Shown here piece by piece: positions 14,828 to 51,832 of a stretch of DNA of 64,000 nt. The notes beneath the pieces were generated by a model. That model was not told the origin of the DNA, searched no databases, and saw only the letters and a program-made list of their open reading frames with translations. The position numbers and the translations under genes are program-made. This stretch comes from a candidate division WWE3 bacterium (GTDB lineage: Bacteria; Patescibacteriota; WWE3; UBA101185; UBA10185): positions 730,919 through 794,918 of the forward strand of contig WJKK01000001.1 of assembly GCA_014729135.1 (NCBI GenBank). The letters run 5' to 3'. The first letter of the stretch is position 1. Each line of letters opens with the position of its first letter.

Positions 14828-17800
14828 CTACTCCTCAACTTCCCAAGAAATATCTACTAAACTTAAAAACAGACTTTCAAAGTCGGTTCCTGCTGCCACA
14901 CTATCCATAAGCTGTTTGTGCAAATAATAAGCATAAGCAGGATCATAATGAACGGCAACTCCGGGATACATGTTTCGCAACTCACCCAAGTCGTTGAATG
15001 TACGGTTGCGGTTAAAGTTCATAGTACCTCCTGAAATAAAAGCACCTTCTAAAACTAGCGAAGTGTCTCCCGGGTCGTCAATTTCTTCATTTTCAAATTC
15101 AACAGAGGGGAAGTTTATGTCACCTAGGGCAAAAACAGAGGCTCCTATTGTGACATCAGAGGCATCTCCGGCGGGAACGTCTACACCCAATTCTTCGGAG
15201 AAAGTCACACCTCCATTAACAACGAGCAAAATCTTTCTATTGTCATTACCGCTGTAAAAGGGCTCCTCAAAAGTGATGTCGCCATCAATATAGATCACAA
15301 CCACACCATCAGAAGCAATATCACCGGAATAATCTCCCTCGCCTCCGATGTCTGCTAAAACGTCTTCAAAAGTGGAAGCAGACATGGAATAGACCATTGT
15401 GGGGTCTAAACCGGAAAAGTCTTCTGTAGAACTAATGTCCGCAAACTCCCCACCGGATAAGTCACCGGAGGCAATTGCCAGAAAAAGGGGAGAAGAAGCA
15501 TAGCCGTACTCAGGGGCGGAAGAGATGGCACTATTACTGTCAGAGCTTTCAACGTCAGATAAGTCTCCCGCAGATAGGGCAAAATCATCTGTCATGTAGT
15601 TGTCATAAACTCCGGGGGTTTCGGGGGTAATCATTGTAATAGCACTTCCGGAGTAAACACCTCCATTAACTACGGTAAACCAACCATCTAAAGCGGAGGT
15701 AAGCTCGTAACCTAGATTAATGGTTACATTACCGGGTACTGTGTAAGGTCCTGTGGCTAAAAGCCCCGGCCCTACACTTAAGGTTCCCGGAGTAACACAG
15801 CCCAGCTGAAAGTTTGTGTCTGTTGGGGCATCCAGGTCGTCCAATTCCAGATACATACCTGTAACATCAGAACCAACAGGGAAGGCGTCACTCTGATTAT
15901 TACTACTATATGCTCCTGTACCGGAATCTATACTAAACTCAAAGTTTTGTTGCGGATCAACAGGATCCGGAACTTCTGCGGTCATTGTAAGATCCGGAGA
16001 TGAAGCAAAATAAGCTAAAGTTTCTCCTTCAGCAGGATTGCAGGTAGTAGTGTCAGAAACAGTGGCGTCGAAAATGGTCCCGGAAATTTGCGGATACCGT
16101 AAAGTTACATTTTTGCTACAAGTAACACTAGCCTCACAAGAAGAATCGCTTAGGTTATCTGAAACTTCCAAAGATATAGGGGCGGAAAATCCACAAGAAG
16201 ATTCGTAAAAATTAGGGGCTGTATAAGAAGTGGAAATTTGTCCTGTAGAAACTCCTGAGGCTTGCTCAGGATTAAAAGAACCCAAGCAAGTAAGAGGTGT
16301 GGAACTCCAAGAATAATCCATATTGTAAGTATCGGAAATAGTGGAAGTGTAAAGCTCAGTGTCTCCAAAAAGTACTGTGCCAGAACCACTTATTGCTGTA
16401 CAGGAGGGGGTATCATTTTTTTGGATAGTGGTTCCTGCACAAAAAACCTGGGAACTATCATCACAGTTATCTGCGTAGGCGTGTATATGAACAGTTCCAT
16501 ATCCTGGATGATTCGCCAAGTTTACAGTTGCTTTCCAAGTGTTCCCACCTACATTAGAAGCCGAATACCGTACAATATCATCTTGACCACCTGTAGCCGT
16601 CCAAGTAGGAAATTTCACTGTCTCAGCGTTGGACACATTGTTAATATAAATATCCACTGTTGAATCAGAACCCAAAACGCAATCAACGCCAGAGCCGTCT
16701 TGCGTAACGGTAATGGAACTAGAACCACAAGTTGGAGCGGAACTATAACCACAATCATCTCCGCCGCCGCCACAATCACCGTCTGCAGGAAGACACGCGG
16801 AAATACCCTGACCACCCCCACAAGGGTCTGTTGGAAGCCACCGAGGATCACAGGTAGAATGGCACGTATCGCGTATATCACCGCATGTCCAATCACAGGA
16901 ACAGTTTGGGGGATCTTCTGGATCTTCTGGAGGGTCTTCAGGGTCAGGATTTACCCAATGACAATTCCAAGAGTCGCAGGAATAGGCACGTAAATCGACG
17001 CAACCGCCATAACTGGGCTCATAATAACAAGGATTCTGGCCAGTAGCACAGGTATCACAATAGGGGTCACCCTCCTCGCATTCACAGACAGTAGTACAAG
17101 GGGTGCCCGAACAATAAGCATATCCCCTCTTCAGAACCCCTAAACCCTCCAGGAAACCAATTAAACCACCATTCTTAGAAATATCCACCAAACCAACATC
17201 AGCATTCAAAGCCGTAAAAAACTCCTCGGGAGGAGAGTAATTAGATGAAACGACCTCAAAATCAGACGTCAAATAATCAACGCCCTGATAAAGCAACCCG
17301 CTAAAAATCTTCTCAGCCACAACTTCATTGCTTTGCAAAACAGCAGGCGAAATGCTAACTTCTAAAACAACATCTTCATCCTGCGCCAGAAAATTCAAAC
17401 CCATCTCCACATCTGTCCCCGAAAAAATCTTGGCGGAACTCAAATCATCCGTTAAATAAATCGTCAAAGTTTCAGGTGTAACATATTTCGGTGGAACCTC
17501 AGAGTCATTTTGCAAATACGTCTTGACTTCATCAAGCGAATAGGTGTAACGTGCAGCATTTTCTGTAAAAAAACCTTTAGTGTATAAATAAGCGGAAAAC
17601 TTTTGCTTTCCTGCAGGAGTAAACTCAATTTCAAAATCCTCAATTTGAGACTCTACGCGCACACTATCCTCAAATAAAGAAATATTAGAGTTGTCTCCGG
17701 ATTCCTGTATTTTTGAAAATGGTGAAGGAGTTTCGTCCCGAGAGGGGGATTGATTTGTTTTGGCAGCTCGTGGGGTGTCCTTTAGAAATAGTTTGGAAAT

Positions 17801-17923
17801 TTGTTCTACAGAGAGGGGGAAACTATAAGTGGTTATGGAAAATGTCAAACCTCCAAGCACAAAAATCAATAAAAAGGTCAAAAGGGCTAGAATTTTCAAA
17901 CCTTTAGGCAGTTTCAGCTTCAT
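14828..17923 (-). CDS. Giant (1031 aa) secreted Cys-rich protein, candidate pilus tip adhesin (PilY1-analogous)
   Basis: N-terminal signal/TM 'ILALLTFLLIFVLGGL'. Central cluster of about 40 Cys ('CSGTPCTTVCECEEGDPYCDTCATGQNPCYY...'). 'PEDPPEDPEDPP' linker. First gene of the pilus locus. Confidence 0.35.
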   Translation of the reverse strand: MKLKLPKGLKILALLTFLLIFVLGGLTFSITTYSFPLSVEQISKLFLKDTPRAAKTNQSPSRDETPSPFSKIQESGDNSNISLFEDSVRVESQIEDFEIEFTPAGKQKFSAYLYTKGFFTENAARYTYSLDEVKTYLQNDSEVPPKYVTPETLTIYLTDDLSSAKIFSGTDVEMGLNFLAQDEDVVLEVSISPAVLQSNEVVAEKIFSGLLYQGVDYLTSDFEVVSSNYSPPEEFFTALNADVGLVDISKNGGLIGFLEGLGVLKRGYAYCSGTPCTTVCECEEGDPYCDTCATGQNPCYYEPSYGGCVDLRAYSCDSWNCHWVNPDPEDPPEDPEDPPNCSCDWTCGDIRDTCHSTCDPRWLPTDPCGGGQGISACLPADGDCGGGGDDCGYSSAPTCGSSSITVTQDGSGVDCVLGSDSTVDIYINNVSNAETVKFPTWTATGGQDDIVRYSASNVGGNTWKATVNLANHPGYGTVHIHAYADNCDDSSQVFCAGTTIQKNDTPSCTAISGSGTVLFGDTELYTSTISDTYNMDYSWSSTPLTCLGSFNPEQASGVSTGQISTSYTAPNFYESSCGFSAPISLEVSDNLSDSSCEASVTCSKNVTLRYPQISGTIFDATVSDTTTCNPAEGETLAYFASSPDLTMTAEVPDPVDPQQNFEFSIDSGTGAYSSNNQSDAFPVGSDVTGMYLELDDLDAPTDTNFQLGCVTPGTLSVGPGLLATGPYTVPGNVTINLGYELTSALDGWFTVVNGGVYSGSAITMITPETPGVYDNYMTDDFALSAGDLSDVESSDSNSAISSAPEYGYASSPLFLAIASGDLSGGEFADISSTEDFSGLDPTMVYSMSASTFEDVLADIGGEGDYSGDIASDGVVVIYIDGDITFEEPFYSGNDNRKILLVVNGGVTFSEELGVDVPAGDASDVTIGASVFALGDINFPSVEFENEEIDDPGDTSLVLEGAFISGGTMNFNRNRTFNDLGELRNMYPGVAVHYDPAYAYYLHKQLMDSVAAGTDFESLFLSLVDISWEVEE

Positions 17924-28136: not shown

Positions 28137-29339
28137 CTAAATTGAAGTAGTAATATTATAAATCGGCGTAATAATCGAAACAATCAAAAGCCCCACCATA
28201 CTTCCCAATAAAACCAAAATAATCGGCTCCAAAGCAGCCGACAAATTCTCGATAGCCGAATTCGTCTCACCCTCATAATAATCAGCCACCCTACCCAAAA
28301 CCTCATCCATCTTACCCGTCTCCTCACCAACTCCCGCCATCTGCCCCAACAAAGCCGGAAAATTCTTATTCCCTCTAAAAAAGTCTGACAAAGAATTGCC
28401 CCGCTCCACATACTCCGCTGCATCCAGGGAAGCCTGCTTTAAATCGTGACTGTTAACAACCGAAGAAACGATGTTAAGCGACTCCACAATTGGAATAGCC
28501 GAGTTAATAAGCAAACTCAGTGTACGAGCAAAAGAAGTAATTTCTTTATTCCTATTAATCTTCCCAAAGACCGGAAGCTTGAAGCCAATTTCAGATAAAA
28601 GCTTCTTTCCATAATCGGTATTCTTAAAATAGCGAAGTGAAACCATAACAGCTCCAATAATTAACAGCAACAAAGCCGTATGCCCCGTCATAAAGTCAGA
28701 AATTGCAATCATAACCTTAGTGGGCAAGGGGAGGGGAACATCTAGATCTTTGTACATGTCCGTTAACTGCGGCACAACCACAATCATCATTAAAATGAAA
28801 ACACCAACCATTGCCAACATAACAATCGCCGGATAAATCATGGCTCCCTTAAACTTAGACTTTAATTCGCGCTCAGCCTCCATTGTTGAGGCCAGGCGCT
28901 TTAAAACAGTGTGCAAATTTCCTGAAGCCTCACCTGCACGTACCAATGCCTGATAAGTGTTAGAAAAAATGTTGGGATACTTTGCAAAGGAATCTGAAAG
29001 GGACAAACCTCCCTCAACATCCCGCAAAATGTTAGAAAGCACCTTGCGAAACTTGTAATTGTCAGTCTGACCGATTAGAACCTCTAAAGATCGCGACAGA
29101 GGCAATCCGGCTGAAATCATTGTAGAAAACTGACGCGTAAAAGTAACAACTTGATCCGTTGGGACCCCTCTAAAAGATAAAATAGACTTTAAAACATCGC
29201 CTTGAGACTTTTCCAAATTAACAATAAAAAGATCCTCCTCCTTTAAAAGTCCAACAGCACCTTCCTTTGTTTTTGCATCAACGGTTCCTGATTTTTTCTT
29301 GCCCTCATGATCTAGGGCAGTGTATTTATATACGGGCAT
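28137..29339 (-). CDS. pilC: Type IV pilus inner-membrane platform protein PilC (GspF family)
   Basis: 400 aa with two GspF repeats and three TM segments. Confidence 0.8.
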   Translation of the reverse strand: MPVYKYTALDHEGKKKSGTVDAKTKEGAVGLLKEEDLFIVNLEKSQGDVLKSILSFRGVPTDQVVTFTRQFSTMISAGLPLSRSLEVLIGQTDNYKFRKVLSNILRDVEGGLSLSDSFAKYPNIFSNTYQALVRAGEASGNLHTVLKRLASTMEAERELKSKFKGAMIYPAIVMLAMVGVFILMMIVVVPQLTDMYKDLDVPLPLPTKVMIAISDFMTGHTALLLLIIGAVMVSLRYFKNTDYGKKLLSEIGFKLPVFGKINRNKEITSFARTLSLLINSAIPIVESLNIVSSVVNSHDLKQASLDAAEYVERGNSLSDFFRGNKNFPALLGQMAGVGEETGKMDEVLGRVADYYEGETNSAIENLSAALEPIILVLLGSMVGLLIVSIITPIYNITTSI

Positions 29340-29351
29340 AAACTTCTTTTT

Positions 29352-30410
29352 TTACTTTAGCAAGCGCCTAACCTGATCCGGCTTATTTGTAAAGCGCAGC
29401 GCTTTATCGGGATCAACTAATCCTTGCTCTATTAAGGTAGCCAAGCTTCTTTCGAGGGAGGTCATGCCTACATTGGAGCTTGTATGGATTACGTTGTCAA
29501 TTTGCTCAAATTTACCTTCACGAATTAGGTTACGAACTGCAGAAGAACCCAGCAAAATTTCAGTAGCCGGGTAAATTTCACCGGATTTAGTAGGCACTAA
29601 GCGCAACGAAACCACAGCTTCTATAATGGCTGCAAACTGAGACTGGATCCCTCCATGTTTATCCTGAGGGAACACGTTAATTATTCGCTCAACTGTTTGA
29701 GAGGCCGAATTCGTATGCAGCGTGGCAAAAACCAGGTGACCTGTTTCCGCAATCCGCAAAGCTGCCGAAACCGTTTCGCGGTCACGCATCTCTCCAATAA
29801 AAACGACGTTAGGATCCTGACGCAAAACTGACTTTAAAGCATTATCCCAAGAAGCTGTATCCACAAAAAGCTCCCGCTGCTCCACTAAAGACTGCTTGTT
29901 ATTAAAAATGTACTCAATGGGATCCTCCAAAGTAATAATATGCTCGGCACGATTTTCGTTAATTTTGTCAATAATTGCAGCTATTGTAGTAGACTTTCCA
30001 TGACCTGCGGGACCTACCACTAAAATCATCCCTTGCTTTAATTCTGCAAGCTGGGAAATGCTTGGCGGAAGATTTAACTCCTCTAAGGAAGGAACTACAT
30101 TAGGAATGTAACGCATTGCAACGGAGGGGTAGCCCTTTTGATAAAAGGCGTTAACTCTAAAACGGGCTTTCTTCCCTAAAGCCACCGAAAAATCAAGCTC
30201 TTTGCTAACCTCCAAAATATCCAACTGATCTTGATCCAAAACTTGCGCCAAAAAGGCGTTAACGTCCTCTATGGTTAGCTGCGAATAACCCGGAAGCTTT
30301 TGCAATTGGCGATTCACACGCACCGTGGGCTCTGACCCAACAACAATATGAAGGTCCGAAGCCTCCACGTTTACAACTTCATCTAAAATCTTTGATGCAT
30401 TAAAACTCAT
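29352..30410 (-). CDS. pilT: Twitching-motility retraction ATPase PilT
   Basis: 352 aa. 'GPAGHGKSTT' Walker A and 'FIGEMRD' follow the PilT/GspE family pattern at PilT length. Confidence 0.8.
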   Translation of the reverse strand: MSFNASKILDEVVNVEASDLHIVVGSEPTVRVNRQLQKLPGYSQLTIEDVNAFLAQVLDQDQLDILEVSKELDFSVALGKKARFRVNAFYQKGYPSVAMRYIPNVVPSLEELNLPPSISQLAELKQGMILVVGPAGHGKSTTIAAIIDKINENRAEHIITLEDPIEYIFNNKQSLVEQRELFVDTASWDNALKSVLRQDPNVVFIGEMRDRETVSAALRIAETGHLVFATLHTNSASQTVERIINVFPQDKHGGIQSQFAAIIEAVVSLRLVPTKSGEIYPATEILLGSSAVRNLIREGKFEQIDNVIHTSSNVGMTSLERSLATLIEQGLVDPDKALRFTNKPDQVRRLLK

Positions 30411-30419
30411 ATTATTTTG

Positions 30420-32192
30420 CTATTTTGCTACTCGCATTACCTCCTCGAGAGTGGTGGTACCCTCTAAAACTCTTAAAACACCGTCTTGCTGCAAACTAAG
30501 CATTCCCTCTGCCTGCGCCTGCTGATGCAACTTTCCGGCGGAGGCGTGGTCTAAAACAAGCTCCGACAAGGCCTCACTCATCGACAAAACCTCAAAAATT
30601 CCAACTCGCCCGGAATAGCCCGTGCCATTACACTCGTCGCAACCCTTACCTCGATATAACTTAATATCATTATTACGCAACTTTTTTAATGATTCAATTA
30701 ATTGCTTATCTTTTGACTGCGAAAGGAGTTTTGACTCTTCCATACCATGCATAATACCTTTAATCTGCTGCTTTACTTCCTCGGGAGGATCTATTTCAGT
30801 TTTACAAACGGGGCAAATTCTACGAACAAGGCGCTGAGCAACAATGGCGTTTACTGTGGACACCAGTAGGTAGTCCTCAATGTCCATGTCAAGCAACCGT
30901 GGAAGCGCACCTGCGGAGGAGTTGGTGTGCAGCGTTGCCAGTACCATGTGACCTGTTAGTGCAGCATGAATTGCCAGTTCCGCAGTTTCACCGTCGCGAA
31001 TCTCACCGACCATGATGACGTTAGGGTCCTGACGAAGGAAGGCGCGAAGGCCGTTTGCAAATGTAAGCCCGGCTTGCGGATTCACCTGCACCTGATTAAC
31101 TCCCGGTATTCTAATTTCTACCGGATCCTCCAGCGTCATGATGTTAACACGCACTGTGTTTAGCTTGTTAAGCGCGGCTGCCAGCGTTACGGTTTTACCG
31201 GAGCTTGTGGGGCCTGTTACCAGAAGCATTCCTGTGGGTTTCAAGATAGCTTCTTCTACACGCTTTAATGAAAGCCCGCGCAATCCCAAATCCTTAAAGG
31301 AGTGAACAGAGCCCTCATCCTGCAAAAGTCGAATAACAACTTTTTCCCCGTTTACTGTAGGCAAAGTGGAAACACGCAAGTCCGTGGCCGTATCACCTAC
31401 TTGAACTTTAAAACGGCCGTCTAAAGGTTTGCGCTTTTCATCCAGCTTCATGTTGGCTAAAATCTTTATGCGAGCAACTACCGGATCATGCATCTGCTTA
31501 GGAAGCGTGCGCTTTTCCTCAAGAACACCATCAATTCGGTAACGCAATCTGGTGCTATCCTCATGCGGTTCAATGTGAATGTCGGAGGCTCCTGTTTTTA
31601 CAGCGGTCTCTAAAATCATGCCCACAATCCTTGCAATAGGAGCATCCCGAAGTGTTGCTGTAGATATCTCCTCGCTGGTTTCATCCAGTTTTAAAGTAGT
31701 TTGATTGATTTCCTCAAGGGCAGCGCTTATTTCCTCGCCAATGGCCCTCCCTTGTAAGTCGCCTAAAACATGAGAAATCTCCCCAGGAGTTGTTATGAAA
31801 GGCTTAACATGAACGTTCTCCTTTTTTTCTATGAACTCTATTGTGGGAAGATCCAGGGGATCCACCATTGCCAGTGAGAGCTTATTTTTTTCTTTGTCAT
31901 ACTCAAAGGGAATGACTTGCTGATTTTTTGCAAGGTCAATGGTTACGTAGTCCATTAGGGAAGGGTCTATTTCCTTGTCACGAAGCGATACAAAAGGAAT
32001 GCCGTAGGATTCACCGTAAGCTTTAATGAAGTCTAGTTCTGAAACGTAGTTGTGCTCTTTAATTATTTGGGTAACGGGTTTTCCGGTGTTAATGTTTTCA
32101 AATTTTATAGCCGAAAGTTGATCGTCGGTGATGAGTTCTTTATCGTGAAGGATGTCTTCAATTGATTTTGTGTCGGTTAGTTGAGTAGGCAT
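30420..32192 (-). CDS. pilB: Type IV pilus assembly ATPase PilB (GspE family)
   Basis: 590 aa. 'VTGPTSSGKT' Walker A, 'MVGEIRD', tetracysteine 'CPVCK...CDECNGTG'. Confidence 0.8.
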   Translation of the reverse strand: MPTQLTDTKSIEDILHDKELITDDQLSAIKFENINTGKPVTQIIKEHNYVSELDFIKAYGESYGIPFVSLRDKEIDPSLMDYVTIDLAKNQQVIPFEYDKEKNKLSLAMVDPLDLPTIEFIEKKENVHVKPFITTPGEISHVLGDLQGRAIGEEISAALEEINQTTLKLDETSEEISTATLRDAPIARIVGMILETAVKTGASDIHIEPHEDSTRLRYRIDGVLEEKRTLPKQMHDPVVARIKILANMKLDEKRKPLDGRFKVQVGDTATDLRVSTLPTVNGEKVVIRLLQDEGSVHSFKDLGLRGLSLKRVEEAILKPTGMLLVTGPTSSGKTVTLAAALNKLNTVRVNIMTLEDPVEIRIPGVNQVQVNPQAGLTFANGLRAFLRQDPNVIMVGEIRDGETAELAIHAALTGHMVLATLHTNSSAGALPRLLDMDIEDYLLVSTVNAIVAQRLVRRICPVCKTEIDPPEEVKQQIKGIMHGMEESKLLSQSKDKQLIESLKKLRNNDIKLYRGKGCDECNGTGYSGRVGIFEVLSMSEALSELVLDHASAGKLHQQAQAEGMLSLQQDGVLRVLEGTTTLEEVMRVAK

Positions 32193-44892: not shown

Positions 44893-45156
44893 ATGAGTTT
44901 AGGTTTAGAAGAAACCGCAATAAAACTTGCACTTCAAAAGGAATGGGACAAGGCAATTGCCCTAAATAAAAAGGTTCTCCAAAATAATTCAAAAAATAAA
45001 AAGGCTCTTTTAAGGTTGGGTAAGGCGTATATGCAAAAAGAGGAGTATCTTGAGGCCAAAAGGGCTTTTAAGAAGGTGCTTGAGATTGACTCTATAAATA
45101 AGATTGCGCTTAAAAACCTTAAGAAAATAGACCAAAGGTCCCCCGCAAGAGTCTAA
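44893..45156 (+). CDS. Small TPR-repeat protein
   Basis: 'ALLRLGKAYMQKEEYLEAKRAFKKVLEID' is a TPR-like helix pair. Confidence 0.45.
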   Translation: MSLGLEETAIKLALQKEWDKAIALNKKVLQNNSKNKKALLRLGKAYMQKEEYLEAKRAFKKVLEIDSINKIALKNLKKIDQRSPARV

Positions 45157-45170
45157 TTACTCGCAAGCTA

Positions 45171-45272
45171 GAGTAAGTACCCCCTTTTTCTCTCACGTTT
45201 CGCGTGACTTTCCTTTTTTAATAGAAAAGTAAGTCCCGCTGCAAAAGTTCTTTCAAAAGGGGGTACTTACTC
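45171..45272. repeat. 18-bp perfect inverted repeat pair between convergent genes
   Basis: gagtaagtaccccctttt (45171-45188) / aaaagggggtacttactc (45255-45272). A second IR, aagatatctctctttt (45289-45304) / aaaagagagatatctt (45341-45356), follows. The spacer has a small hairpin plus a T-run. Confidence 0.6.
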
Positions 45273-45358
45273 TGAGGATACGGCAAGAAAGATATCTCTC
45301 TTTTGAGTGACATTTCGGAGCAAAGCGACGTCGTGGAACGAAAAAGAGAGATATCTTC

Positions 45359-48187
45359 CTAAGAGGCCTCAGAGTCATCCCCAATTCGCGCATCCACCTC
45401 CGGGTTCAACCCCTTCATAGAAAGCTTAATCTTCCCCGTATCCTCAGAAACCTCCAAAACCTTAACCTTAACCTTCTCACCTGCTTCAGCCAGCCCATCA
45501 ATATCCTTAACATACTTCTCAGAAATCTCGCTAATGTGAACCAAACCGGTAACTCCCTTCTTGATCTCCACAAAAAGGCCAAAACCTGCCACATCAGCAA
45601 TAGTTCCCTCATAAACAGCATCTGCCTCAATGTTGGAAATATCCTGCTCTAAAACCTCCTCCTCTTCCGGAGAAAGATCCACAACATCGCCTGCCTTACG
45701 ACGCTCAGAAATAGCCCTACCCAAATCAAACTCAGTTTCCGTCCAATTGTTAATCTCCCGCGTTACCTCCTCCACGGAAACGCCAAACTTCTCCCGACTT
45801 CGCTGCAAGATACTCTCCTTATTTCCCGACTTAGGCACTAAATTATCCTTCCAAGGAAGCAAAATCTTTGCAGAAAAAGGCATAGATGTCATACCATTAA
45901 TCATCAGCTTTATATAAATGTGGAAGCGCTCCATGGAAATAAGGTCATTCTCATCAAAAAACGGCGCAAACTCCTTGGACATTGCAAAGGCGTCAGGAGC
46001 TCCCAGAGCAAACGAAGCAATAGTCCCAACGTTACCTAAAACCGCCTGTAGAAGCTCCTCAGGAAGCTGAGCGGTATACTGGTGCGTCAGATGCAAAGCC
46101 AGTTTATACTTTCGCGACTCTGACAAAATCGACTCAAAACTTCCTGTAGCAAAGTTTTGAAACTCGTCAACATACAAATAAAAAGGTCGACGCTCATCCG
46201 GAGGGAGCTTAGCCCTCTGCAAAGCCATAAACTGAATCCTGGAAACCAGCAAAGCACCCAACAAATTAGCATTATCCGCTCCAATCTTACCCTTAGAAAG
46301 ATTCATGAGCAAAATCTTGCCCTCATTCATAATGTTCCAAAAATTAATTGTAGACTTTTGCTGCCCCAAAATATTTCTAATAGTTGAGGACGCCAAGAAC
46401 CTATTAACCTTGTTCTGAATTGGCGCTATTGCCTCTGTTACAAGCTTGTTATTCCCCTTCATGTTTTTATACTCGGTGTTCCAAAACTTCATAACAACGG
46501 GATCGTCCACATAATGGAGAATGTATTTCAGGTAATTTGGATCTTCCAACAAACGAGTAATTCCCAGCATTGTTGTATCCGGAGCCGAAAGCAAAGTCAA
46601 AATAGAGTAATTGAGTAAATATTCTAATCGGGGTCCCCAAGAGTAATCAAAATGCTGTTTAATAGCTGCTACTAAAGCAGAAGCCATCAGGTTTTTTTGC
46701 GAAGGATCATCAAGTTCCATTAGGTTTATGCCCACAGGATTTTCCAAATCCGACGGATCCACGTAAATAACGTCCTCAATACGGTCATCCGGAATTCTTT
46801 CCAAAACTGTATCAATTGTTTCCCCATGTGGATCCAAAACGCCTACGCCATAGCCCTTAGCAATATCCTGTGTCACCATATTTACAAACATAGTCGATTT
46901 ACCTGTACCGGACTTCCCTATTAGGTACATATGGCGTAACCGATCGTTACCGTCTTTAATTCCAAAGCGCATTTTTTTGTCGCGGTAAATTGTTTCGGCA
47001 ATATAGGTACAATCTTTTGTGGGCAATTCCGCAGGGGGCTCACCTTTTTTAGAGTAAACCCAGGAGGACATGTTAGGAGTGGCTATAACGGAGGAGGGTA
47101 AATGGAAAACTGCAGCAAGCTCTTCTATGTTTAGAATAAAAGCCTCGTTGGGATTAAAGCAGCGATCCCGAAAGCCTTGCAGAATTGAGGCTTTGTCGGC
47201 AGTTTTAGCAGCAGTAAAGCTGTTAGTTGTAGTTGTATAGAATTGCTTTAGGGAGGCTATTAGGGAGCGCATGTTACTTTGAGCAAGTCCCGGATCCGCT
47301 GCTGCAGAGGCCAAACGAACCTGAACAAAATAACCGAGTTTTGAGAGCTTGTTTTCTACAGCCTGGATCTCTAGTTCTTGTGTGGGTGATAAACGAACAG
47401 GCTCATCCCCTCCTCCGGTGGAACGCGCCCTAGCTTGAGATTCTTCGGCACTTCGAAAAAAGCCCGTTAAAAGCTCTACAATAATTTCGCCAACTTCAGA
47501 GACAATAGCAAAAAAGATAGATTTAATTTCATCACCAAACTGCTTTTTCTCGTAAGCTACTCCATCACGAATGGCCTCTACATAAGCAATTCCCTCATCC
47601 TGCCAAACATCCGGAGCAGGACGCACAAGTATTTGCATTCCCAGAAAGTCTTCAGGACCCACGTTTGACATAACAGAGGTAATTCCTGAAAGGGGGTCTA
47701 CTTCTAAGTCGCGAAAAGACTTTAAGGGGAAGAAAAATTCGCGGGAGAGTTTTAGCTGCGTGGTTTCATAATGCGTGTGAGTTAAAAGGCGGTCGGTGTA
47801 ATCGTCTACTATTTTGATTTGGGCGGAGGCATATTGGGCGTAAACCTGACTTTCAACAAATTTGGATATGCGCTTGGGAACAACCAAGTAAAAGCGAATG
47901 CCGTCCTCTCCTTGGGAGATTATTTCCAGTGAAAAGTATTCCTGGTCGTCGGATTCTTCTTTTAGTAGTCCGTGAAGGGCAGCAAACATGCTTTCGGCTG
48001 CTAACGAGGATGCCTGTATGTCTTGACGGGATTCGTCTATGCGAGGAACGCGAACCTCTAAGACGTTAACTTCGCCGGAAAGTAGACACTCCTCTCCCCC
48101 GCCGGATTTTCGCAGTTTTCGCGCTATAAAAATAGATATCACTCCAAGGCCAAATGCTAAAGGGCCTAGAATGCCATATGTTGACAT
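45359..48187 (-). CDS. Membrane-anchored P-loop NTPase (TraD/VirD4/HerA-like, AAA_10/DUF87-type) with C-terminal S1 RNA-binding domain
   Basis: N-terminal TM. 'LIGKSGTGKST' Walker A. 'LYVDEFQNFAT' Walker B. C-terminal 'GTIADVAGFGLFVEIKKGVTGLVHISEISEKYVKDI...KVKVKVLEV...GKIKLSMK' is an S1 fold. Confidence 0.45.
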   Translation of the reverse strand: MSTYGILGPLAFGLGVISIFIARKLRKSGGGEECLLSGEVNVLEVRVPRIDESRQDIQASSLAAESMFAALHGLLKEESDDQEYFSLEIISQGEDGIRFYLVVPKRISKFVESQVYAQYASAQIKIVDDYTDRLLTHTHYETTQLKLSREFFFPLKSFRDLEVDPLSGITSVMSNVGPEDFLGMQILVRPAPDVWQDEGIAYVEAIRDGVAYEKKQFGDEIKSIFFAIVSEVGEIIVELLTGFFRSAEESQARARSTGGGDEPVRLSPTQELEIQAVENKLSKLGYFVQVRLASAAADPGLAQSNMRSLIASLKQFYTTTTNSFTAAKTADKASILQGFRDRCFNPNEAFILNIEELAAVFHLPSSVIATPNMSSWVYSKKGEPPAELPTKDCTYIAETIYRDKKMRFGIKDGNDRLRHMYLIGKSGTGKSTMFVNMVTQDIAKGYGVGVLDPHGETIDTVLERIPDDRIEDVIYVDPSDLENPVGINLMELDDPSQKNLMASALVAAIKQHFDYSWGPRLEYLLNYSILTLLSAPDTTMLGITRLLEDPNYLKYILHYVDDPVVMKFWNTEYKNMKGNNKLVTEAIAPIQNKVNRFLASSTIRNILGQQKSTINFWNIMNEGKILLMNLSKGKIGADNANLLGALLVSRIQFMALQRAKLPPDERRPFYLYVDEFQNFATGSFESILSESRKYKLALHLTHQYTAQLPEELLQAVLGNVGTIASFALGAPDAFAMSKEFAPFFDENDLISMERFHIYIKLMINGMTSMPFSAKILLPWKDNLVPKSGNKESILQRSREKFGVSVEEVTREINNWTETEFDLGRAISERRKAGDVVDLSPEEEEVLEQDISNIEADAVYEGTIADVAGFGLFVEIKKGVTGLVHISEISEKYVKDIDGLAEAGEKVKVKVLEVSEDTGKIKLSMKGLNPEVDARIGDDSEAS

Positions 48188-48367
48188 AGGTTTAGTTTGG
48201 ATGGAGATGGGGTCTTTGTTTTTTGTTGCCGTAACAGCAGGTTCTCAGTATATCTGCCTTAACGCTTTTAACTTGGCACAAAAGTAGCGCTTAGTACTAG
48301 CAGATGTTCCTATTGTCGGTTAGTTTTGAAAGTCTGTCAAGTGCAATAATGGACTTAAGGGATTGGC

Positions 48368-49495
48368 TTATTCCCCTCCCAAAATCAGCGTCACGTCAGC
48401 ACGATCAATAACCGACTCATTACTCCCCAAGGAATAAGAGGCCTTTTCATAAATTCGATCAGGCGAAACATCAAAAAACCTTGCCAAATAGGCCACTGTA
48501 ACACTTCCAACGTCATCCGCAACAATATAAGTATCCGAATAAGAACCGATAGCATTGTCCACCGCCACAACATGGCCTCCCCTATTTTTAACCACGCGTG
48601 CCCCGAAACTTGCCAGGCCGGGCATAGAGGTACCATTTAAAACTGCTATACTTTTTTTCTCCTCTGCAAAAGTGGAGTCGTAGGTTTGCTGCCTGGTGTA
48701 GGCGTCTAAAGCCTCCGTTGTAGTGAACGCCACATGCTGAATATCCTTTGAGGAAAAAGATCGACTAATGGAATAGAGGTGCAAAAAATCACTAAATGTC
48801 ATATCGGTTTTTAGGGAGTTGCGAATGCACTTTACATCAGACTTATCAAAAAGCTCTGTGAAGCTGCCTTCTATAATGAGATTTTTGGAAAAGTCTGAAA
48901 GTGAAGGCTCCACCATTACAAAGCGGTCTATGTCAAGGCCTGTCAAATCTTTTAGGGCCTTTCGTGTGTAGGAAATTCCTGCGTTGAAGTTTGCTTCAGA
49001 GGTGGTTTGGGAGGTGTTGGTGTCGCTGTCTTCAGTGGAAGAAGCGCTGCTATCTAAAGTGCCTAAAGCAAAAGACCTGGAAATTGCCTCCTCCCCAAAC
49101 TTACCCGGCATATCCACCTGCTGATCCGGAGAAATGTCATAAACAGCAAAACTCTCATGTGAGGGGCTAATTAAAAGCACTTTTATATCCGCCAAAATTA
49201 AGGGACTTTCATTAAAGTCTTTTGCAAAGGTTTCCTTGGAAGTTAAAAGCGCTAGTGCATAGAAATCTTGATTTTGAAAGTCTTGGGAAGTGTTGGAGGA
49301 AGCGGACGTGTAACTTTGATGAAACTGTTTGTAAAATGCGTAAAAGCTGAGAAAAAGTAGGAAAGAAACAAACAAACCGCCTATTCCCAGATATTTTTGA
49401 AGTTGCTTTTTTCGAGTTTTGCGGGATTTTGAGGTACGTTTTTTCCTATTAAAAAGGGATTTTTTGGCAGCTTTTCTGGCAGTTTTAGCGGGCAT
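48368..49495 (-). CDS. LytR-CpsA-Psr (LCP) family protein candidate
   Basis: Basic N-terminus plus a TM. C-terminal 'IAVLNGTSMPGLASFGARVVKNRGGHVVAVDNA' resembles the LytR_C domain. Confidence 0.4.
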   Translation of the reverse strand: MPAKTARKAAKKSLFNRKKRTSKSRKTRKKQLQKYLGIGGLFVSFLLFLSFYAFYKQFHQSYTSASSNTSQDFQNQDFYALALLTSKETFAKDFNESPLILADIKVLLISPSHESFAVYDISPDQQVDMPGKFGEEAISRSFALGTLDSSASSTEDSDTNTSQTTSEANFNAGISYTRKALKDLTGLDIDRFVMVEPSLSDFSKNLIIEGSFTELFDKSDVKCIRNSLKTDMTFSDFLHLYSISRSFSSKDIQHVAFTTTEALDAYTRQQTYDSTFAEEKKSIAVLNGTSMPGLASFGARVVKNRGGHVVAVDNAIGSYSDTYIVADDVGSVTVAYLARFFDVSPDRIYEKASYSLGSNESVIDRADVTLILGGE

Positions 49496-50351: not shown

Positions 50352-50693
50352 TCAAGTATCATACTCAATGGGGCTTATTAGGGATTTTATGTAGACAAGA
50401 AGCAACAGCAAAAATCCAAGGTTTACAGAAATGTCGGCGTAGTTAAACGAGAAAATTCCAAAAAAGGAAAGCGGATCAGCCACACAACCCTCCACCAAAC
50501 GATGATACAAATTATAAGAACCTCCCAAAACCAGAAAAACCACTCCCAAAACCCCCAAGACTTTCCCCCTCTCTAACAATCCGGAAACATAAAATGAGTA
50601 AACAAACAACCCAAAAACAAGGACAATAAAAAAAACATAAACTTCTATAGAAATAAAGTTTGAAAATGGAAAACTGCAGTTATAAGTCATCAA
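50352..50693 (-). CDS. Small membrane protein, hypothetical
   Basis: 113 aa, three hydrophobic helices. ATGA overlap with the upstream gene. Confidence 0.3.
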   Translation of the reverse strand: MMTYNCSFPFSNFISIEVYVFFIVLVFGLFVYSFYVSGLLERGKVLGVLGVVFLVLGGSYNLYHRLVEGCVADPLSFFGIFSFNYADISVNLGFLLLLLVYIKSLISPIEYDT

Positions 50694-51832
50694 CTAGAAG
50701 AAGCTTCAGAACGACGTGCACACTCACTACACAAATGCGCCTCCGGATAAGCCTTCAACCTCGCCGGATCAATATCCTCACCACACTTCTCGCAAACCCC
50801 ATACTCCCCTCGAGACAACTTACCCAAAGCCTTCTGCACATTCGACTTCACCGACCCCAAAACACGCTTCTGCGCATCAATAACAGTCTTAAACGTATCC
50901 TCCAAATAAGCATCGTCCACCATCTCCGAATTATCCTCCGCCCGACCCTCCTGCATATAAGGATCCTCAGAATCCAACAACTTCTCCTGCTTCTCCAAAG
51001 AATCATTCTTCTTCTGCAAGGTCTTCTTTAAAGAGTCTATTAACGATTTGGGTAAATTTTTTCCTGACATAAACGATTTTGATTTCAAATTAGAATCAGA
51101 TTTTGACCTAACTAAGGACTTACTTAAAATAAGCTTTTTCACCCTCAAAATGAGAACTAACATACTAATTGTAAACAAGACACCATGGAATAGCAAATCC
51201 TCCATGGAGGTGTGCCCCAACAAAATCCCTGCTATAACAACCAGCAGCAGAAAAGCTACGAAAGCAAACCCTGAAAAAATCCTCTTAAGACGCAAAGCAG
51301 AAAAAACTCCGTAAAAAATGAGGAGGATTCCAATTAGAACCAGATAGCTAAAGTCTTTTTGCAGCCCAACAACAGACAGAAAAGCAATAGAGCCTCCAAA
51401 GGCCAGTGCCAAAGCAAAGATATCTAAGATGCGATATAAGGACCACTTGGAAGCGCGTACTAACAAGGTTGCGGTAGCTATAAATCCCAGTAAAAAGCCA
51501 GGAAAGCTTACGCCGGGCTTCCAAATAAGGATAGTGTGTTTTAAAAGGGGCATTGGCAAATAGCGGGAATTGTAGGCATAAAAGGCGCGAGAAACTAGTA
51601 ACCCTGCTACTAAGGAAAGCAAGTATTTGTCAAAAAGTTTCTCTTCGTCAAAGCCGTCCTTGCGCCCTTCCCTCCAAACGGGATAAAGTGAAAATAAAAA
51701 GCCGGCTATTAAAAAGAGTCCTTGAGTATAAACGGTTATATTCCCTATGCCTGCAAGGGATTCTATAGAAGCTCCAAAAATGTCGGCTAAGATGTCAGCT
51801 AAAGGGATTGTAATTTCTGCGGGTAAGTTCAT
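50690..51832 (-). CDS. Fusion: Lgt-like polytopic membrane domain + C-terminal DksA/TraR C4 zinc finger
   Basis: N-terminal ~250 aa with 6-7 TM segments and Lgt-like segments ('QGLFLIAGFLFSLYPVWREGRKDG'). The C-terminus 'CEKCGEDIDPARLKAYPEAHLCSECA' is a DksA/TraR-type CxxC-17-CxxC. Confidence 0.4.
   Translation of the reverse strand: MNLPAEITIPLADILADIFGASIESLAGIGNITVYTQGLFLIAGFLFSLYPVWREGRKDGFDEEKLFDKYLLSLVAGLLVSRAFYAYNSRYLPMPLLKHTILIWKPGVSFPGFLLGFIATATLLVRASKWSLYRILDIFALALAFGGSIAFLSVVGLQKDFSYLVLIGILLIFYGVFSALRLKRIFSGFAFVAFLLLVVIAGILLGHTSMEDLLFHGVLFTISMLVLILRVKKLILSKSLVRSKSDSNLKSKSFMSGKNLPKSLIDSLKKTLQKKNDSLEKQEKLLDSEDPYMQEGRAEDNSEMVDDAYLEDTFKTVIDAQKRVLGSVKSNVQKALGKLSRGEYGVCEKCGEDIDPARLKAYPEAHLCSECARRSEASSS

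What the first reader, a model, noticed from the sequence alone, without database searches (positions are those of the whole stretch)
45359..48187. Membrane-anchored TraD/VirD4/HerA-like P-loop ATPase fused to a C-terminal S1 domain
The 942-aa protein has an N-terminal TM helix, Walker A 'GKSGTGKST' and Walker B 'LYVDEFQNF' in an AAA_10/DUF87-type context typical of conjugative coupling and DNA-translocase ATPases. It ends with an unambiguous S1 OB-fold ('GFGLFVEIKKGVTGLVHISEISEKYVKD...VKVKVLEV'). I do not recognise a nucleic-acid-binding S1 domain on a translocase-like ATPase as a standard architecture. In a lineage that depends on pili/DNA uptake it could couple ssDNA or RNA handling to a membrane ATPase.
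Basis: partly seen in the sequence, partly recalled or inferred. Interest (0 to 1): 0.55.

Follow-up and report, generated by a model that had tools for sequence, protein, structure and literature searches.

The report
Orphan coupling-protein ATPase with fused S1
This is a membrane-anchored motor protein of the kind that feeds DNA into conjugation channels, kept as a stand-alone chromosomal gene across ultra-small Patescibacteria, and in one small lineage it has swapped its usual separate partner protein for a built-in S1 RNA/ssDNA-binding domain, which suggests the whole family handles single-stranded nucleic acid.

Summary
ORF 45359-48187 (-) encodes 942 aa with an N-terminal TM helix, DUF8128, a Walker A/B ATPase core (TrwB_AAD_bind and DUF87 above Pfam cutoffs) and a true S1 domain (aa 854-925, E 3e-17).

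The core is not a housekeeping family with routine S1 fusions. It belongs to a VirD4/TrwB-class coupling-protein (T4CP) lineage. Distant full-length homologs on Bacillus and Embleya plasmids sit beside a relaxase and a separate VirB4. In Patescibacteria the gene is phylum-wide, chromosomal and far from T4SS genes, as already reported (PMC12102498).

The S1 fusion is rare: one monophyletic WWE3 subclade, plus one independent case in a Peribacteria-labelled MAG, among about 170 loci. In all 7 fused loci an otherwise conserved downstream gene ("X") is missing. X is an orphan family predicted as a helix plus tandem OB-like barrels. Elsewhere X is fused to the ATPase or lies between tandem paralogs. 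Other lineages carry zinc-ribbon or Arg/Lys-rich tails.

I infer that the C-terminal module is a nucleic-acid receptor for the motor. Substrate (RNA or ssDNA), direction and channel are unknown. I rate this a new variant of a known kind, of moderate interest.

The parts
45359..48187 (-). Whole ORF, 942 aa plus stop; DUF8128-T4CP-like ATPase-S1 fusion (GenBank MBD3366458.1)
48122..48178 (-). N-terminal transmembrane helix (aa 4-22) followed by RKLRK. The positive-inside rule puts the rest of the protein in the cytoplasm.
   Evidence: Hydropathy; helix 2-27 in the model; a hydrophobic N-terminus is conserved in relatives
46988..48070 (-). DUF8128 (PF26449) alpha/beta N-domain, aa ~40-400. It is shared with plasmid and phage homologs. 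Function is unknown.
   Evidence: Precomputed Pfam; hhalign to the plasmid homolog covers aa 78-776; phrog_5156 covers aa 79-813
45788..46960 (-). VirD4/TrwB-class P-loop ATPase core, aa ~410-800
   Evidence: Pfam PF10412 and PF01935; Foldseek matches to TrwB, DotL and Cagbeta at E ~1e-6
46895..46918 (-). Walker A GKSGTGKS (aa 424-431); G424, K425, G427, G429 and K430 are invariant in 57 sequences
46343..46735 (-). All-helical insertion in the nucleotide-binding domain (aa ~485-615), in the position of the T4CP all-alpha domain
   Evidence: Secondary structure of the model; span of the TrwB_AAD_bind match
46151..46177 (-). Walker B LYVDEFQNF (aa 671-679); D674 and E675 are invariant
45629..45712 (-). 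Acidic, poorly conserved linker (aa 826-853, net charge -6, pLDDT below 50 at aa 835-846)
45413..45628 (-). S1 OB-fold domain (aa 854-925). Conserved G-F-G-x-F-V and G-L-V-H-x-S-E motifs are retained.
   Evidence: Pfam E 3.3e-17; rmsd 1.0 A to the M. tuberculosis RpsA S1 domain and 49% identity to YabR; alignment A4
45362..45412 (-). Short acidic C-terminal tail (aa 926-942, net charge -4)
45157..45360 (-). Structured intergenic stretch with two 19-bp inverted repeats, at the place where non-fused relatives carry gene X
44893..45156 (+). Shortened TPR gene (87 aa; 226-245 aa in non-fused relatives)
48312..48340 (-). Promoter-like site TTGACA-17-GACAAT upstream of the ATPase start. This is a consensus match only, and the region shows no more such matches than chance.
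48368..49495 (-). Syntenic upstream neighbour, a membrane protein with a LytR_C domain

Best explanation
The gene encodes a chromosomal, 'orphan' type-IV-coupling-protein-like ATPase (VirD4/TrwB class within the FtsK/HerA superfamily). It is anchored in the membrane by one N-terminal helix, with its DUF8128 domain, ATPase core and C-terminal module in the cytoplasm. By analogy with solved T4CPs it probably forms a hexameric ring that uses ATP to engage and thread a polymer. In T4CPs the C-terminal tail is the substrate or adaptor docking site. In this Patescibacteria family that position, or the gene immediately downstream, carries a nucleic-acid-binding-type module. Depending on lineage this is a separate helix + tandem-OB-like protein (gene X), the same X domain fused, a treble-clef zinc ribbon, Arg/Lys-rich tails, or, in this WWE3 subclade, a canonical S1 domain that replaced gene X. 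The most likely mechanism is that the S1 domain captures single-stranded nucleic acid (RNA or ssDNA) directly, without a relaxase, and presents it to the ATPase ring. Shown here: the domain architecture, the family placement, the restriction of the fusion to one clade, its independent recurrence, and the perfect anticorrelation with gene X. Inferred: hexamer formation, nucleic-acid binding by S1 and X, a hand-off to the motor, and any transport. Unknown: RNA versus ssDNA, import versus export, and which channel, if any, is used.
For: Architecture: Pfam S1, TrwB_AAD_bind and DUF87 all score above their cutoffs, and DUF8128 is present. Walker A, Walker B and the SESRKY motif are invariant in 57 sequences.

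Class: the best Foldseek PDB hits are VirB4/TrwK (E 1e-10), DotL (7.5e-7), TrwB (2e-6, TM 0.43-0.46), Cagbeta (2.5e-6) and HerA (1e-5). The best NCBIfam hits are the VirD4-like CD1115 family (9e-7) and CedD (4e-6). Full-length homologs on B. subtilis and Embleya plasmids are homologous over aa 78-776 (hhalign 99.9%, E 6e-35). They lie directly upstream of a Replic_Relax relaxase and in the same cluster as a separate AAA_10 VirB4 and TcpE/PrgI.

Orphan status: the gene sits in syntenic housekeeping context in WWE3. In 41 Saccharibacteria-type loci it sits in dprA-topA / ftsQ-murG-ftsW-mraY context. The literature reports 5,713 T4CP homologs in 2,918 of 3,035 genomes, with only 148 near virB4 (PMC12102498).

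Fusion: the 9 fused proteins are monophyletic in 50 of 50 bootstraps. S1 identity is 43-65% against 11-50% for the linker. A second, independent S1 fusion occurs in L076 (PF00575 E 1.7e-9).

Replacement: gene X lies 6-12 bp downstream in the non-fused loci L001-003 and L006-007. It also follows the ATPase directly in L008 and L088. It is absent in any reading frame from all 7 fused loci and from the whole window. X is fused to the ATPase in L009 and lies between tandem paralogs in 9 loci. The X model is confident (pLDDT above 90 over aa 1-170) and matches the RNase II/R cold-shock domains, IF1/eIF1A, the Rho OB domain and the PAN/Mpa coiled-coil + OB domains.

Other tails: zf_Tbcl_2 zinc ribbons and K/R-rich patches in 29 of 82 tails. 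T4CP C-terminal tails recruit substrates or adaptors (PMC12857230).
Against: There is no experimental or direct computational evidence that S1 or X binds nucleic acid here, or that either contacts the ATPase ring. The linker is disordered in the model, and the ATPase segment aa 676-770 is modelled with pLDDT below 50. X's fold matches have weak E-values (2.5e-3 or worse). S1 and X show no sequence homology (hhalign 0.7%), so 'functional replacement' rests on position and fold class only. No T4SS, relaxase or ComEC gene lies next to the gene, and the pilus operon is 13-17 kb away. The t4cp homolog of Southlakia epibionticum was reported as not essential for epibiotic growth. All curated T4CP family scores are far below their cutoffs (28 bits against 250). 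28 of 82 family members have short tails and no detected adjacent X, so a nucleic-acid module is not universal.
Confidence: 0.5

Rival explanations
1. FtsK-like chromosome handling. The ATPase is a division-site DNA translocase used for chromosome segregation or dimer resolution, and the S1/OB modules help it hold DNA.
For: It is near-universal, chromosomal and vertically syntenic. A Xer-type tyrosine recombinase lies 3-4 genes away in WWE3 loci and directly next to the gene in L076. YebC lies nearby in WWE3 loci, and RuvC too in L001-L003. In 41 Saccharibacteria-type loci the gene abuts ftsQ-murG-ftsW-mraY and dprA-topA. T4CPs are ancestrally related to FtsK/SpoIIIE.
Against: There is no FtsK_SpoIIIE Pfam match and no gamma domain. 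The closest homologs are conjugative T4CPs beside relaxases. S1 and OB modules favour single-stranded substrates, not dsDNA. I could not establish whether these genomes lack a canonical FtsK.
Confidence: 0.15
2. Conventional coupling protein. It still serves the Patescibacteria T4SS encoded elsewhere in the genome, recruiting a protein or nucleoprotein substrate. The S1 is an accessory adaptor.
For: The domain class and plasmid homologs point this way. t4cp genes are often encoded far from virB4, and the Patescibacteria T4SS is essential for epibiotic growth.
Against: Most Patescibacteria T4SS clusters lack a relaxase, and only 148 of 5,713 T4CP homologs are near virB4. The Southlakia t4cp was not essential although other T4SS genes were. 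No T4SS gene lies in this 64-kb window.
Confidence: 0.15
3. RNA-metabolism role unrelated to transport. The membrane-tethered ATPase remodels or degrades RNA, or organises mRNA or ribosomes at the membrane, and the S1 acts as it does in GSP13/YabR, PNPase or RNase R.
For: The S1 tail is most similar to the stand-alone GSP13/CvfD/YabR proteins and to PNPase C-termini. X resembles the cold-shock domains of RNase II/R and IF1. The neighbours include EF-P, RluD and an rRNA/tRNA methyltransferase-like gene.
Against: No nuclease or helicase domain was found. The ATPase fold class is the ring translocase, not an RNA helicase. The neighbouring translation genes are generic housekeeping synteny.
Confidence: 0.1
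4. Anti-phage defence or mobile-element remnant (HerA/mad8-like ATPase).
For: There are weak PADLOC hits to mad8 (E 8e-11) and HerA. Homologs occur in large Bacillus phages and on plasmids.
Against: Synteny is stable and vertical across a whole phylum, with no defence-island neighbours. There is no partner nuclease or methyltransferase. The HerA NCBIfam score is 13 bits against a cutoff of 800.
Confidence: 0.03

Closest known systems
VirD4/TrwB/TraD-type type IV coupling proteins (T4CPs), especially monoderm plasmid T4CPs encoded beside Replic_Relax (RelLS20-type) relaxases
   Same: Shared features are an N-terminal membrane anchor, a Walker A/B nucleotide-binding domain with an inserted all-helical domain, and a variable C-terminal extension at the position where T4CPs dock substrates or adaptors. 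The fold matches TrwB, DotL and Cagbeta. The protein shows full-length homology (including DUF8128) to plasmid proteins in conjugation clusters.
   Different: It has one TM helix rather than the usual two. A 360-aa DUF8128 domain lies between the anchor and the ATPase. It is chromosomal, vertically inherited and not linked to a relaxase, VirB4 or other T4SS genes. Its tail is an S1 nucleic-acid-binding domain rather than a relaxosome or adaptor-binding peptide. It scores far below curated T4CP cutoffs.
Orphan T4CP homologs of Patescibacteria (Quinonero-Coronel et al. 2025, PMC12102498)
   Same: This is very probably the same gene family: about two copies per genome in 96% of genomes, rarely near virB4, with a possibly exapted function. 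The phylum-wide spread was confirmed here, with at least 597 loci in GTDB species genomes.
   Different: In the passages retrieved from that paper (term search) there is no mention of DUF8128, the S1 fusion, gene X or the variable nucleic-acid-type tails. Whether its HMM hits include this exact family was not checked against its tables.
CedD / archaeal Ced DNA-import ATPase, and HerA
   Same: Both belong to the same superfamily. There are weak profile hits to CedD (E 4e-6) and a fold hit to HerA (E 1e-5). Ced is a precedent for an import-directed translocase of this superfamily.
   Different: The scores are far below family cutoffs. There is no HAS-barrel, no NurA partner and no Ced partners.
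Stand-alone S1 proteins GSP13/YabR/CvfD and the S1 domains of PNPase and bS1
   Same: The S1 tail is 45-59% identical to these proteins. Its conserved aromatic and His motifs are retained, and the rmsd to solved S1 domains is 1.0-1.6 A.
   Different: Here the S1 is a C-terminal appendage of a membrane translocase-class ATPase, not a ribosome- or RNase-associated module.
Phage proteins G gp156, SPO1 gp27.4 and 0305phi8-36 ORF201 (phrog_5156)
   Same: They share the same DUF8128 + ATPase architecture. The phrog profile E-value is 5e-93, and the Foldseek match to gp156 has E 6e-40 and TM 0.55-0.62.
   Different: None has an S1 domain. Their function is unknown and identity is 20-24%.

Membership tests
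Type IV coupling protein (VirD4/TrwB/TraD/TraG) | N-terminal transmembrane anchor | tested here: met
   There is one strongly hydrophobic helix at aa 4-22 followed by RKLRK, and it is conserved in relatives. T4CPs usually have two TM helices, so this is a variant.
Type IV coupling protein (VirD4/TrwB/TraD/TraG) | Walker A/B nucleotide-binding domain of the FtsK/HerA superfamily with TrwB-like fold | tested here: met
   The motifs are invariant. Foldseek matches TrwB at E 2e-6 with TM 0.43-0.46, DotL at 7.5e-7 and Cagbeta at 2.5e-6.
Type IV coupling protein (VirD4/TrwB/TraD/TraG) | All-alpha domain inserted in the nucleotide-binding domain | tested here: met
   PF10412 TrwB_AAD_bind scores 32.9 bits against a cutoff of 20.5. 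The model shows seven helices at aa 495-607 between core strands. This rests on prediction only.
Type IV coupling protein (VirD4/TrwB/TraD/TraG) | Homologs encoded with a relaxase and VirB4 in conjugative clusters | tested here: met
   This holds for distant homologs only. The B. subtilis NZ_CP032854 and Embleya NZ_CP108778 genes are followed by Replic_Relax, with a separate AAA_10 VirB4 in the cluster. Homology to the family is 99.9% by hhalign.
Type IV coupling protein (VirD4/TrwB/TraD/TraG) | Genetic linkage to a T4SS or relaxase in its own genome | tested here: not met
   None was found in the 64-kb window or in the flanks (3-10 kb each side) of related loci. The rest of the 864-kb genome was not available.
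Type IV coupling protein (VirD4/TrwB/TraD/TraG) | Reaches curated family score (NCBIfam CD1115 / TraD models) | tested here: not met
   The protein scores 28.1 bits against a cutoff of 250 for CD1115, and 19.4 against 366 for TraD.
Type IV coupling protein (VirD4/TrwB/TraD/TraG) | Hexamer formation and substrate recruitment to a secretion channel | not testable with these tools
   This needs biochemistry or a multimer model. No multimer prediction was available.
HerA helicase | HAS-barrel N-domain, HerA ATPase core and a NurA (or defence) partner | tested here: not met
   Only the generic DUF87 domain matches. The HerA NCBIfam score is 13 bits against 800. The N-domain is DUF8128, and there is no NurA-like neighbour.
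FtsK/SpoIIIE | FtsK_SpoIIIE motor domain and a gamma (KOPS-reading) domain | tested here: not met
   No PF01580 or gamma-domain hit appears at E <= 1.
VirB4 | AAA_10 / CagE_TrbE_VirB sequence families; two-domain NTD + CTD architecture | tested here: inconclusive
   There are no AAA_10 or CagE hits. In plasmid clusters VirB4 is a separate AAA_10 gene next to the homolog. However, the best full-length Foldseek hit is TrwK/VirB4 (E 1e-10, TM only 0.22-0.25), so DUF8128 may resemble the VirB4 N-domain.
S1 RNA-binding domain (OB fold) | PF00575 profile match, five-stranded barrel and conserved aromatic/His surface | tested here: met
   The protein scores 63 bits against a cutoff of 22. The rmsd is 1.0 A to the RpsA S1 domain, and pLDDT is above 90. 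F, F and H in GFGxFV and GLVHxSE are invariant or nearly so among the fused proteins. Binding itself was not tested.

The most novel reading that the evidence does not exclude
The DUF8128 coupling-protein-like ATPase may be the relaxase-independent cytoplasmic receptor and motor for single-stranded nucleic acid traffic in Patescibacteria. In particular it could drive uptake of host RNA or ssDNA, which these nucleotide-auxotrophic epibionts need and for which the mechanism 'remains unresolved' (preprint 10.64898/2026.06.21.733656). On this reading the S1 domain, the OB-like protein X, the zinc ribbons and the basic tails are interchangeable substrate-capturing heads.
Probability: 0.15. Interest if true: 0.85.

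Novelty: new variant of a known kind. Interest (0 to 1): 0.55.

Why it matters
Patescibacteria make up a large share of bacterial diversity. They cannot make nucleotides, and they carry an essential T4SS without relaxases plus nearly two orphan coupling-protein genes per genome, whose role is unknown.

A domain fusion is one of the few sequence-only clues to function. Here a canonical single-stranded nucleic-acid-binding domain has twice been welded onto this ATPase. In one clade it displaced a conserved OB-like partner gene.

That gives a concrete, testable hypothesis: these orphan T4CPs engage RNA or ssDNA directly. It also names two reagents for testing it, the S1 tail and protein X. In addition it defines a new uncharacterised protein family (X) that is genetically coupled to the ATPase.

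Tried and rejected
- **S1 derived from X:** rejected at the sequence level; hhalign probability is 0.7%.
- **X as a degenerate relaxase:** X occupies the slot the relaxase has on plasmids, but this was rejected; hhalign probability is 3.6%.
- **More S1-fused relatives:** the metagenome scan returned 80 loci and none was fused.
- **Direct comparison with TrwK/TrwB or TraC/TraD:** I tried to fetch R388 and F plasmid records, but the accessions were not in the collections. I used tblastn on the plasmid collection instead.
- **Profile search against PDB sequences:** it gave only a P-loop-level TrwB hit (E 0.0016), so classification rests on fold, Pfam and the context of homologs.
- **Literature:** searches for DUF8128, and for Patescibacteria with DUF87, found nothing.
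- **SPO1 gp27.4 neighbourhood:** uninformative, as every neighbour is unannotated.
- **Rfam on the structured intergenic region:** only chance-level miRNA matches.
- **Exact look-up of the window protein's contig:** no record was found.
- **Not used:** the representative-library HMMER job, because it carries no annotation or context that would change the verdict.
- **Defence-system reading:** considered and set aside on context.
Full report
**Observation.** The ORF at 45359-48187 on the minus strand is real and encodes 942 aa. It has one strongly hydrophobic N-terminal helix (aa 4-22) followed by RKLRK. Walker A GKSGTGKS is at aa 424, Walker B LYVDEFQNF at aa 671, and the quoted S1 string at aa 868. 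Pfam places S1 (PF00575) at aa 854-925 with E 3.3e-17, TrwB_AAD_bind (PF10412) at aa 418-710, and DUF87 (PF01935) at aa 418-637. All three are above their curated cutoffs. TraG-D_C is below its cutoff and AAA_10 is absent. The 360 residues between the anchor and the ATPase are DUF8128 (PF26449). The identical protein is GenBank MBD3366458.1, 'S1 RNA-binding domain-containing protein [candidate division WWE3 bacterium]', on an 864-kb contig.

**What the ATPase is.** Sequence relationships to solved structures are very remote: a profile of 57 family members finds only TrwB, at E 0.0016 around the P-loop.

An AlphaFold2 model has mean pLDDT 76, with aa 676-770 poorly modelled. Against the PDB it matches TrwK/VirB4 over the full length (E 1e-10, but TM only 0.22-0.25). 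It then matches the coupling proteins DotL (7.5e-7), TrwB (2e-6, TM 0.43-0.46) and Cagbeta (2.5e-6), and then HerA (1e-5). With the S1 removed, the best NCBIfam hits are the Gram-positive 'VirD4-like CD1115 family' (E 9e-7) and the archaeal DNA-import ATPase CedD (E 4e-6). Both are far below family cutoffs.

The most informative evidence comes from distant full-length homologs on plasmids. tblastn finds 316 plasmid records. On a 24.7-kb B. subtilis plasmid and on an Embleya plasmid the homolog is followed directly by a Replic_Relax relaxase. It also shares its cluster with a separate AAA_10 VirB4, TcpE/PrgI and an NlpC/P60 hydrolase. The B. subtilis protein aligns to the family profile over aa 78-776, covering both DUF8128 and the ATPase, at hhalign probability 99.9% and E 6e-35.

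The family is therefore a coupling-protein (T4CP) lineage of monoderm conjugation systems. It is not HerA, FtsK or VirB4. The same architecture also occurs in large Bacillus phages: phrog_5156 at E 5e-93, phage G gp156 by Foldseek at E 6e-40, and SPO1 gp27.4. All of these are of unknown function.

**Distribution and context.** These come from MAGs labelled Saccharibacteria, Dojkabacteria, Nomura-, Uhr-, Doudna-, Peri- and Moranbacteria or generically 'Patescibacteria group'. The WWE3 assignments come from source names in the protein database. The metagenome scan behaved likewise.

In WWE3 the gene sits in stable housekeeping synteny: EF-P, an Lgt-DksA-zinc-finger protein, RluD, a LytR_C protein, the ATPase, a TPR gene, YebC, Xer recombinase, IMPDH, RNase HII and GyrA. 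In 41 Saccharibacteria-type loci it lies between dprA-topA-(sigma70_r4/HARE-HTH protein) and the converging ftsQ-murG-ftsW-mraY cluster. The window holds a type IV pilus operon (PilB/T/C at 28.1-32.2 kb), GyrB/A and DnaB, but no VirB4 or relaxase.

This fits the published finding of 5,713 VirD4-type homologs in 2,918 of 3,035 Patescibacteria genomes. Only 148 of them lie near virB4, and the Southlakia copy is non-essential, so exaptation 'cannot be ruled out' (PMC12102498). The base family is therefore already known as an orphan T4CP.

**The S1 fusion.** Among the 120 best homologs, only the nine or ten closest (62-77% identity, 941-964 aa) carry S1. All others are about 830-860 aa and end near query residue 830. 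On a tree of the core region the nine fused proteins are monophyletic in 50 of 50 bootstraps. Identity to the window protein is 43-65% in S1, comparable to DUF8128 at 55-73%, while the linker is only 11-50% identical. This indicates purifying selection on S1.

An HMM screen of about 170 loci found S1 tails only in this clade and in one distant locus, L076. L076 is labelled Peribacteria and its core is 37% identical. Its tail is a Pfam S1 (E 1.7e-9) but only 18% identical to the window's S1, so this is an independent fusion.

The S1 tail is closest to the small GSP13/CvfD/YabR proteins and to PNPase C-termini, at 45-59% identity. It superposes on solved S1 domains at 1.0-1.6 A. S1 fusions are clearly not routine in this family.

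**What the S1 replaced.**
- **Non-fused WWE3-type loci.** The ATPase stop is followed by a co-directional 228-300-aa gene, 'X', 6-12 bp downstream in L001-003, L006 and L007, and directly downstream also in L008 and L088.
- **Fused loci.** In all seven with context (window, L004, L005, L171-L174), X is absent in every reading frame. The adjacent TPR gene is shortened from 226-245 aa to 85-89 aa or lost.
- **The X family.** X is an orphan family of 106 hits with no Pfam domain, and many hits share contig lengths with ATPase hits. It has a conserved N-terminal helix, a beta-rich core, a Pro/Lys-rich disordered region and an invariant C-terminal DDLR.
- **The X model.** The model is confident over aa 1-170. 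Its Foldseek hits have weak E-values (2.5e-3 or worse) but point to a single fold class: the tandem cold-shock domains of RNase II/R, IF1/eIF1A (TM 0.62-0.64), the Rho OB domain, aIF5A/EF-P and the coiled-coil + OB N-domains of PAN/Mpa.
- **Other arrangements of X.** X is fused to the ATPase C-terminus in L009. It lies between two tandem ATPase paralogs in L015, L016, L022, L086, L093, L095, L098, L101 and L102.
- **Relationships.** S1 and X are not detectably homologous (hhalign 0.7%), and X is unrelated to the plasmid relaxase (3.6%).

The best description is a non-homologous displacement: an OB-like partner gene was replaced by a fused canonical OB-fold domain.

**Other tails.** The C-terminus is a hotspot for variation. 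Treble-clef zinc ribbons (PF23477) occur in the Uhr- and Moranbacteria-labelled loci L070 and L085 and in the Saccharibacteria-labelled L083. Arg/Lys-rich patches occur in 29 of 82 tails, mostly in Saccharibacteria. 28 of 82 tails are short.

**Mechanism.** In characterised T4CPs the C-terminal tail is where substrates or adaptors dock: TrwB binds TrwA, and the DotL tail binds its adaptors (PMC12857230). I infer that in this family the tail or partner position has been filled with modules typical of nucleic-acid binding. In the window protein, the S1 would capture single-stranded RNA or DNA directly and present it to a membrane-bound ATPase ring, without a relaxase.

Shown here are the architecture, the family placement, the restriction of the fusion to one clade, its recurrence, and the anticorrelation with X. 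Inferred are oligomerisation, nucleic-acid binding and the hand-off to the motor. Unknown are the substrate type, the direction and the channel. I put confidence in this reading at about 0.5.

**Rivals.**
- **FtsK-like chromosome role.** This is supported by the Xer, dcw and dprA-topA context, but not by the domain content.
- **Conventional T4CP for the distant T4SS.**
- **Membrane-tethered RNA-metabolism role.**
- **Defence or mobile-element remnant.** This is disfavoured by the vertical synteny.

**Novelty and interest.** The base family is known, although only as 'T4CP homologs'. What appears to be undescribed, in the literature I could search, is the S1-bearing variant, its recurrence, the orphan partner family X and the pattern of interchangeable nucleic-acid-type tails. 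I classify it as a new variant of a known kind.

Interest is moderate (0.55). A specialist would not be astonished by a nucleic-acid-binding domain on a coupling protein. But it gives a testable handle on two open questions: what the roughly two orphan T4CPs per Patescibacteria genome do, and how these nucleotide auxotrophs move nucleic acids. A 2026 preprint reports host-RNA uptake with an unresolved mechanism. The most novel reading not excluded is that this family is the relaxase-independent RNA/ssDNA uptake motor. I give that a probability of about 0.15.

Noticed in passing
window 45157-45360: The 200 nt after (and overlapping) the ATPase stop codon hold two 19-bp inverted repeats: 45170-88/45255-73 at 100%, and 45286-304/45342-60 at 95%. 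As RNA they fold into two long hairpins (-82.4 kcal/mol, z -7.8). There is no Rfam family. The fused relative L005 has only 17 bp here. The stretch could be a terminator pair, a small inserted element or a scar of the gene-X deletion.
   Followed up: partly
L001 12507-13409; L006 8515-9201; L007 8526-9323; L009 4983-8276 (aa 880-1089): Gene X is an orphan Patescibacteria protein family with no Pfam domain. It has an N-terminal helix, predicted tandem OB-like barrels, a Pro/Lys-rich disordered region and an invariant C-terminal DDLR. It is genetically coupled to the ATPase in three ways: adjacent, fused, or between tandem paralogs. Source annotations ('50S ribosomal protein L7/L12', 'flap endonuclease-1-like') look spurious.
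   Followed up: yes
L076 6996 and 7044: The independent S1-fused ortholog, in a MAG labelled Peribacteria, has two in-frame TAA codons 16 codons apart, the first replacing the invariant Glu of the SESRKY motif. The downstream S1-encoding part remains open. This could be a pseudogene, an assembly error or recoding.
   Followed up: no
window 44893-45156 (+); L005 8886-9149; L172 6871-7140; L174 6815-7072: The convergent TPR gene next to the ATPase is 226-245 aa in non-fused WWE3 loci. In all S1-fused loci it is only 85-89 aa or absent, so the event that removed gene X also truncated or removed its neighbour.
   Followed up: partly
L015, L016, L022, L086, L093, L095, L098, L101, L102: These loci show tandem duplication of the ATPase with gene X between the copies. 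The second paralog carries a 130-280-aa tail; in L015, L016, L022 and L086, where the tails were read, it contains a conserved 'YKEQTARGGVKWFIGED' block with no Pfam match.
   Followed up: no
Saccharibacteria-type loci, e.g. L028, L045, L060, L116, L125: The long disordered tails of the ATPase contain a KRKRTRSRKRK-like patch. They often end in a conserved [LIV]-x-[LIVF]-[RHK]-COOH motif (ELRLR, LKLR, SIKH), reminiscent of the DDLR end of gene X. This may be a docking peptide.
   Followed up: no
window 50690-51832 (-): This 380-aa protein combines an Lgt-like polytopic membrane domain with a C-terminal DksA/TraR C4 zinc finger. It is conserved at the same position in the other WWE3 loci examined. 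The architecture is unusual.
   Followed up: no
window 28137-32192 (-): A type IV pilus motor operon is present: PilB (T2SSE + MshEN), PilT-like T2SSE and PilC (T2SSF). It lies 13-17 kb from the ATPase gene and is not linked to it in related loci.
   Followed up: partly
L019 3671-4774; L076 3804-4889: A protein with sigma-70 region 4 plus a HARE-HTH domain lies immediately upstream of the ATPase in L019; the L076 upstream ORF looks similar by eye (not scanned). It may be a conserved partner or regulator outside WWE3.
   Followed up: no
window aa 223-245 of the ORF (nt ~47453-47521): A second moderately hydrophobic helix (IFFAIVSEVGEIIVELLTGFF, KD 1.73, with three Glu) lies inside DUF8128, in a segment absent from the plasmid homolog. 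It is probably amphipathic or membrane-associated rather than transmembrane.
   Followed up: no
window 14828-17923 (-): This 1031-aa ORF has a GBS_Bsp-like repeat and is probably a large surface protein.
   Followed up: no
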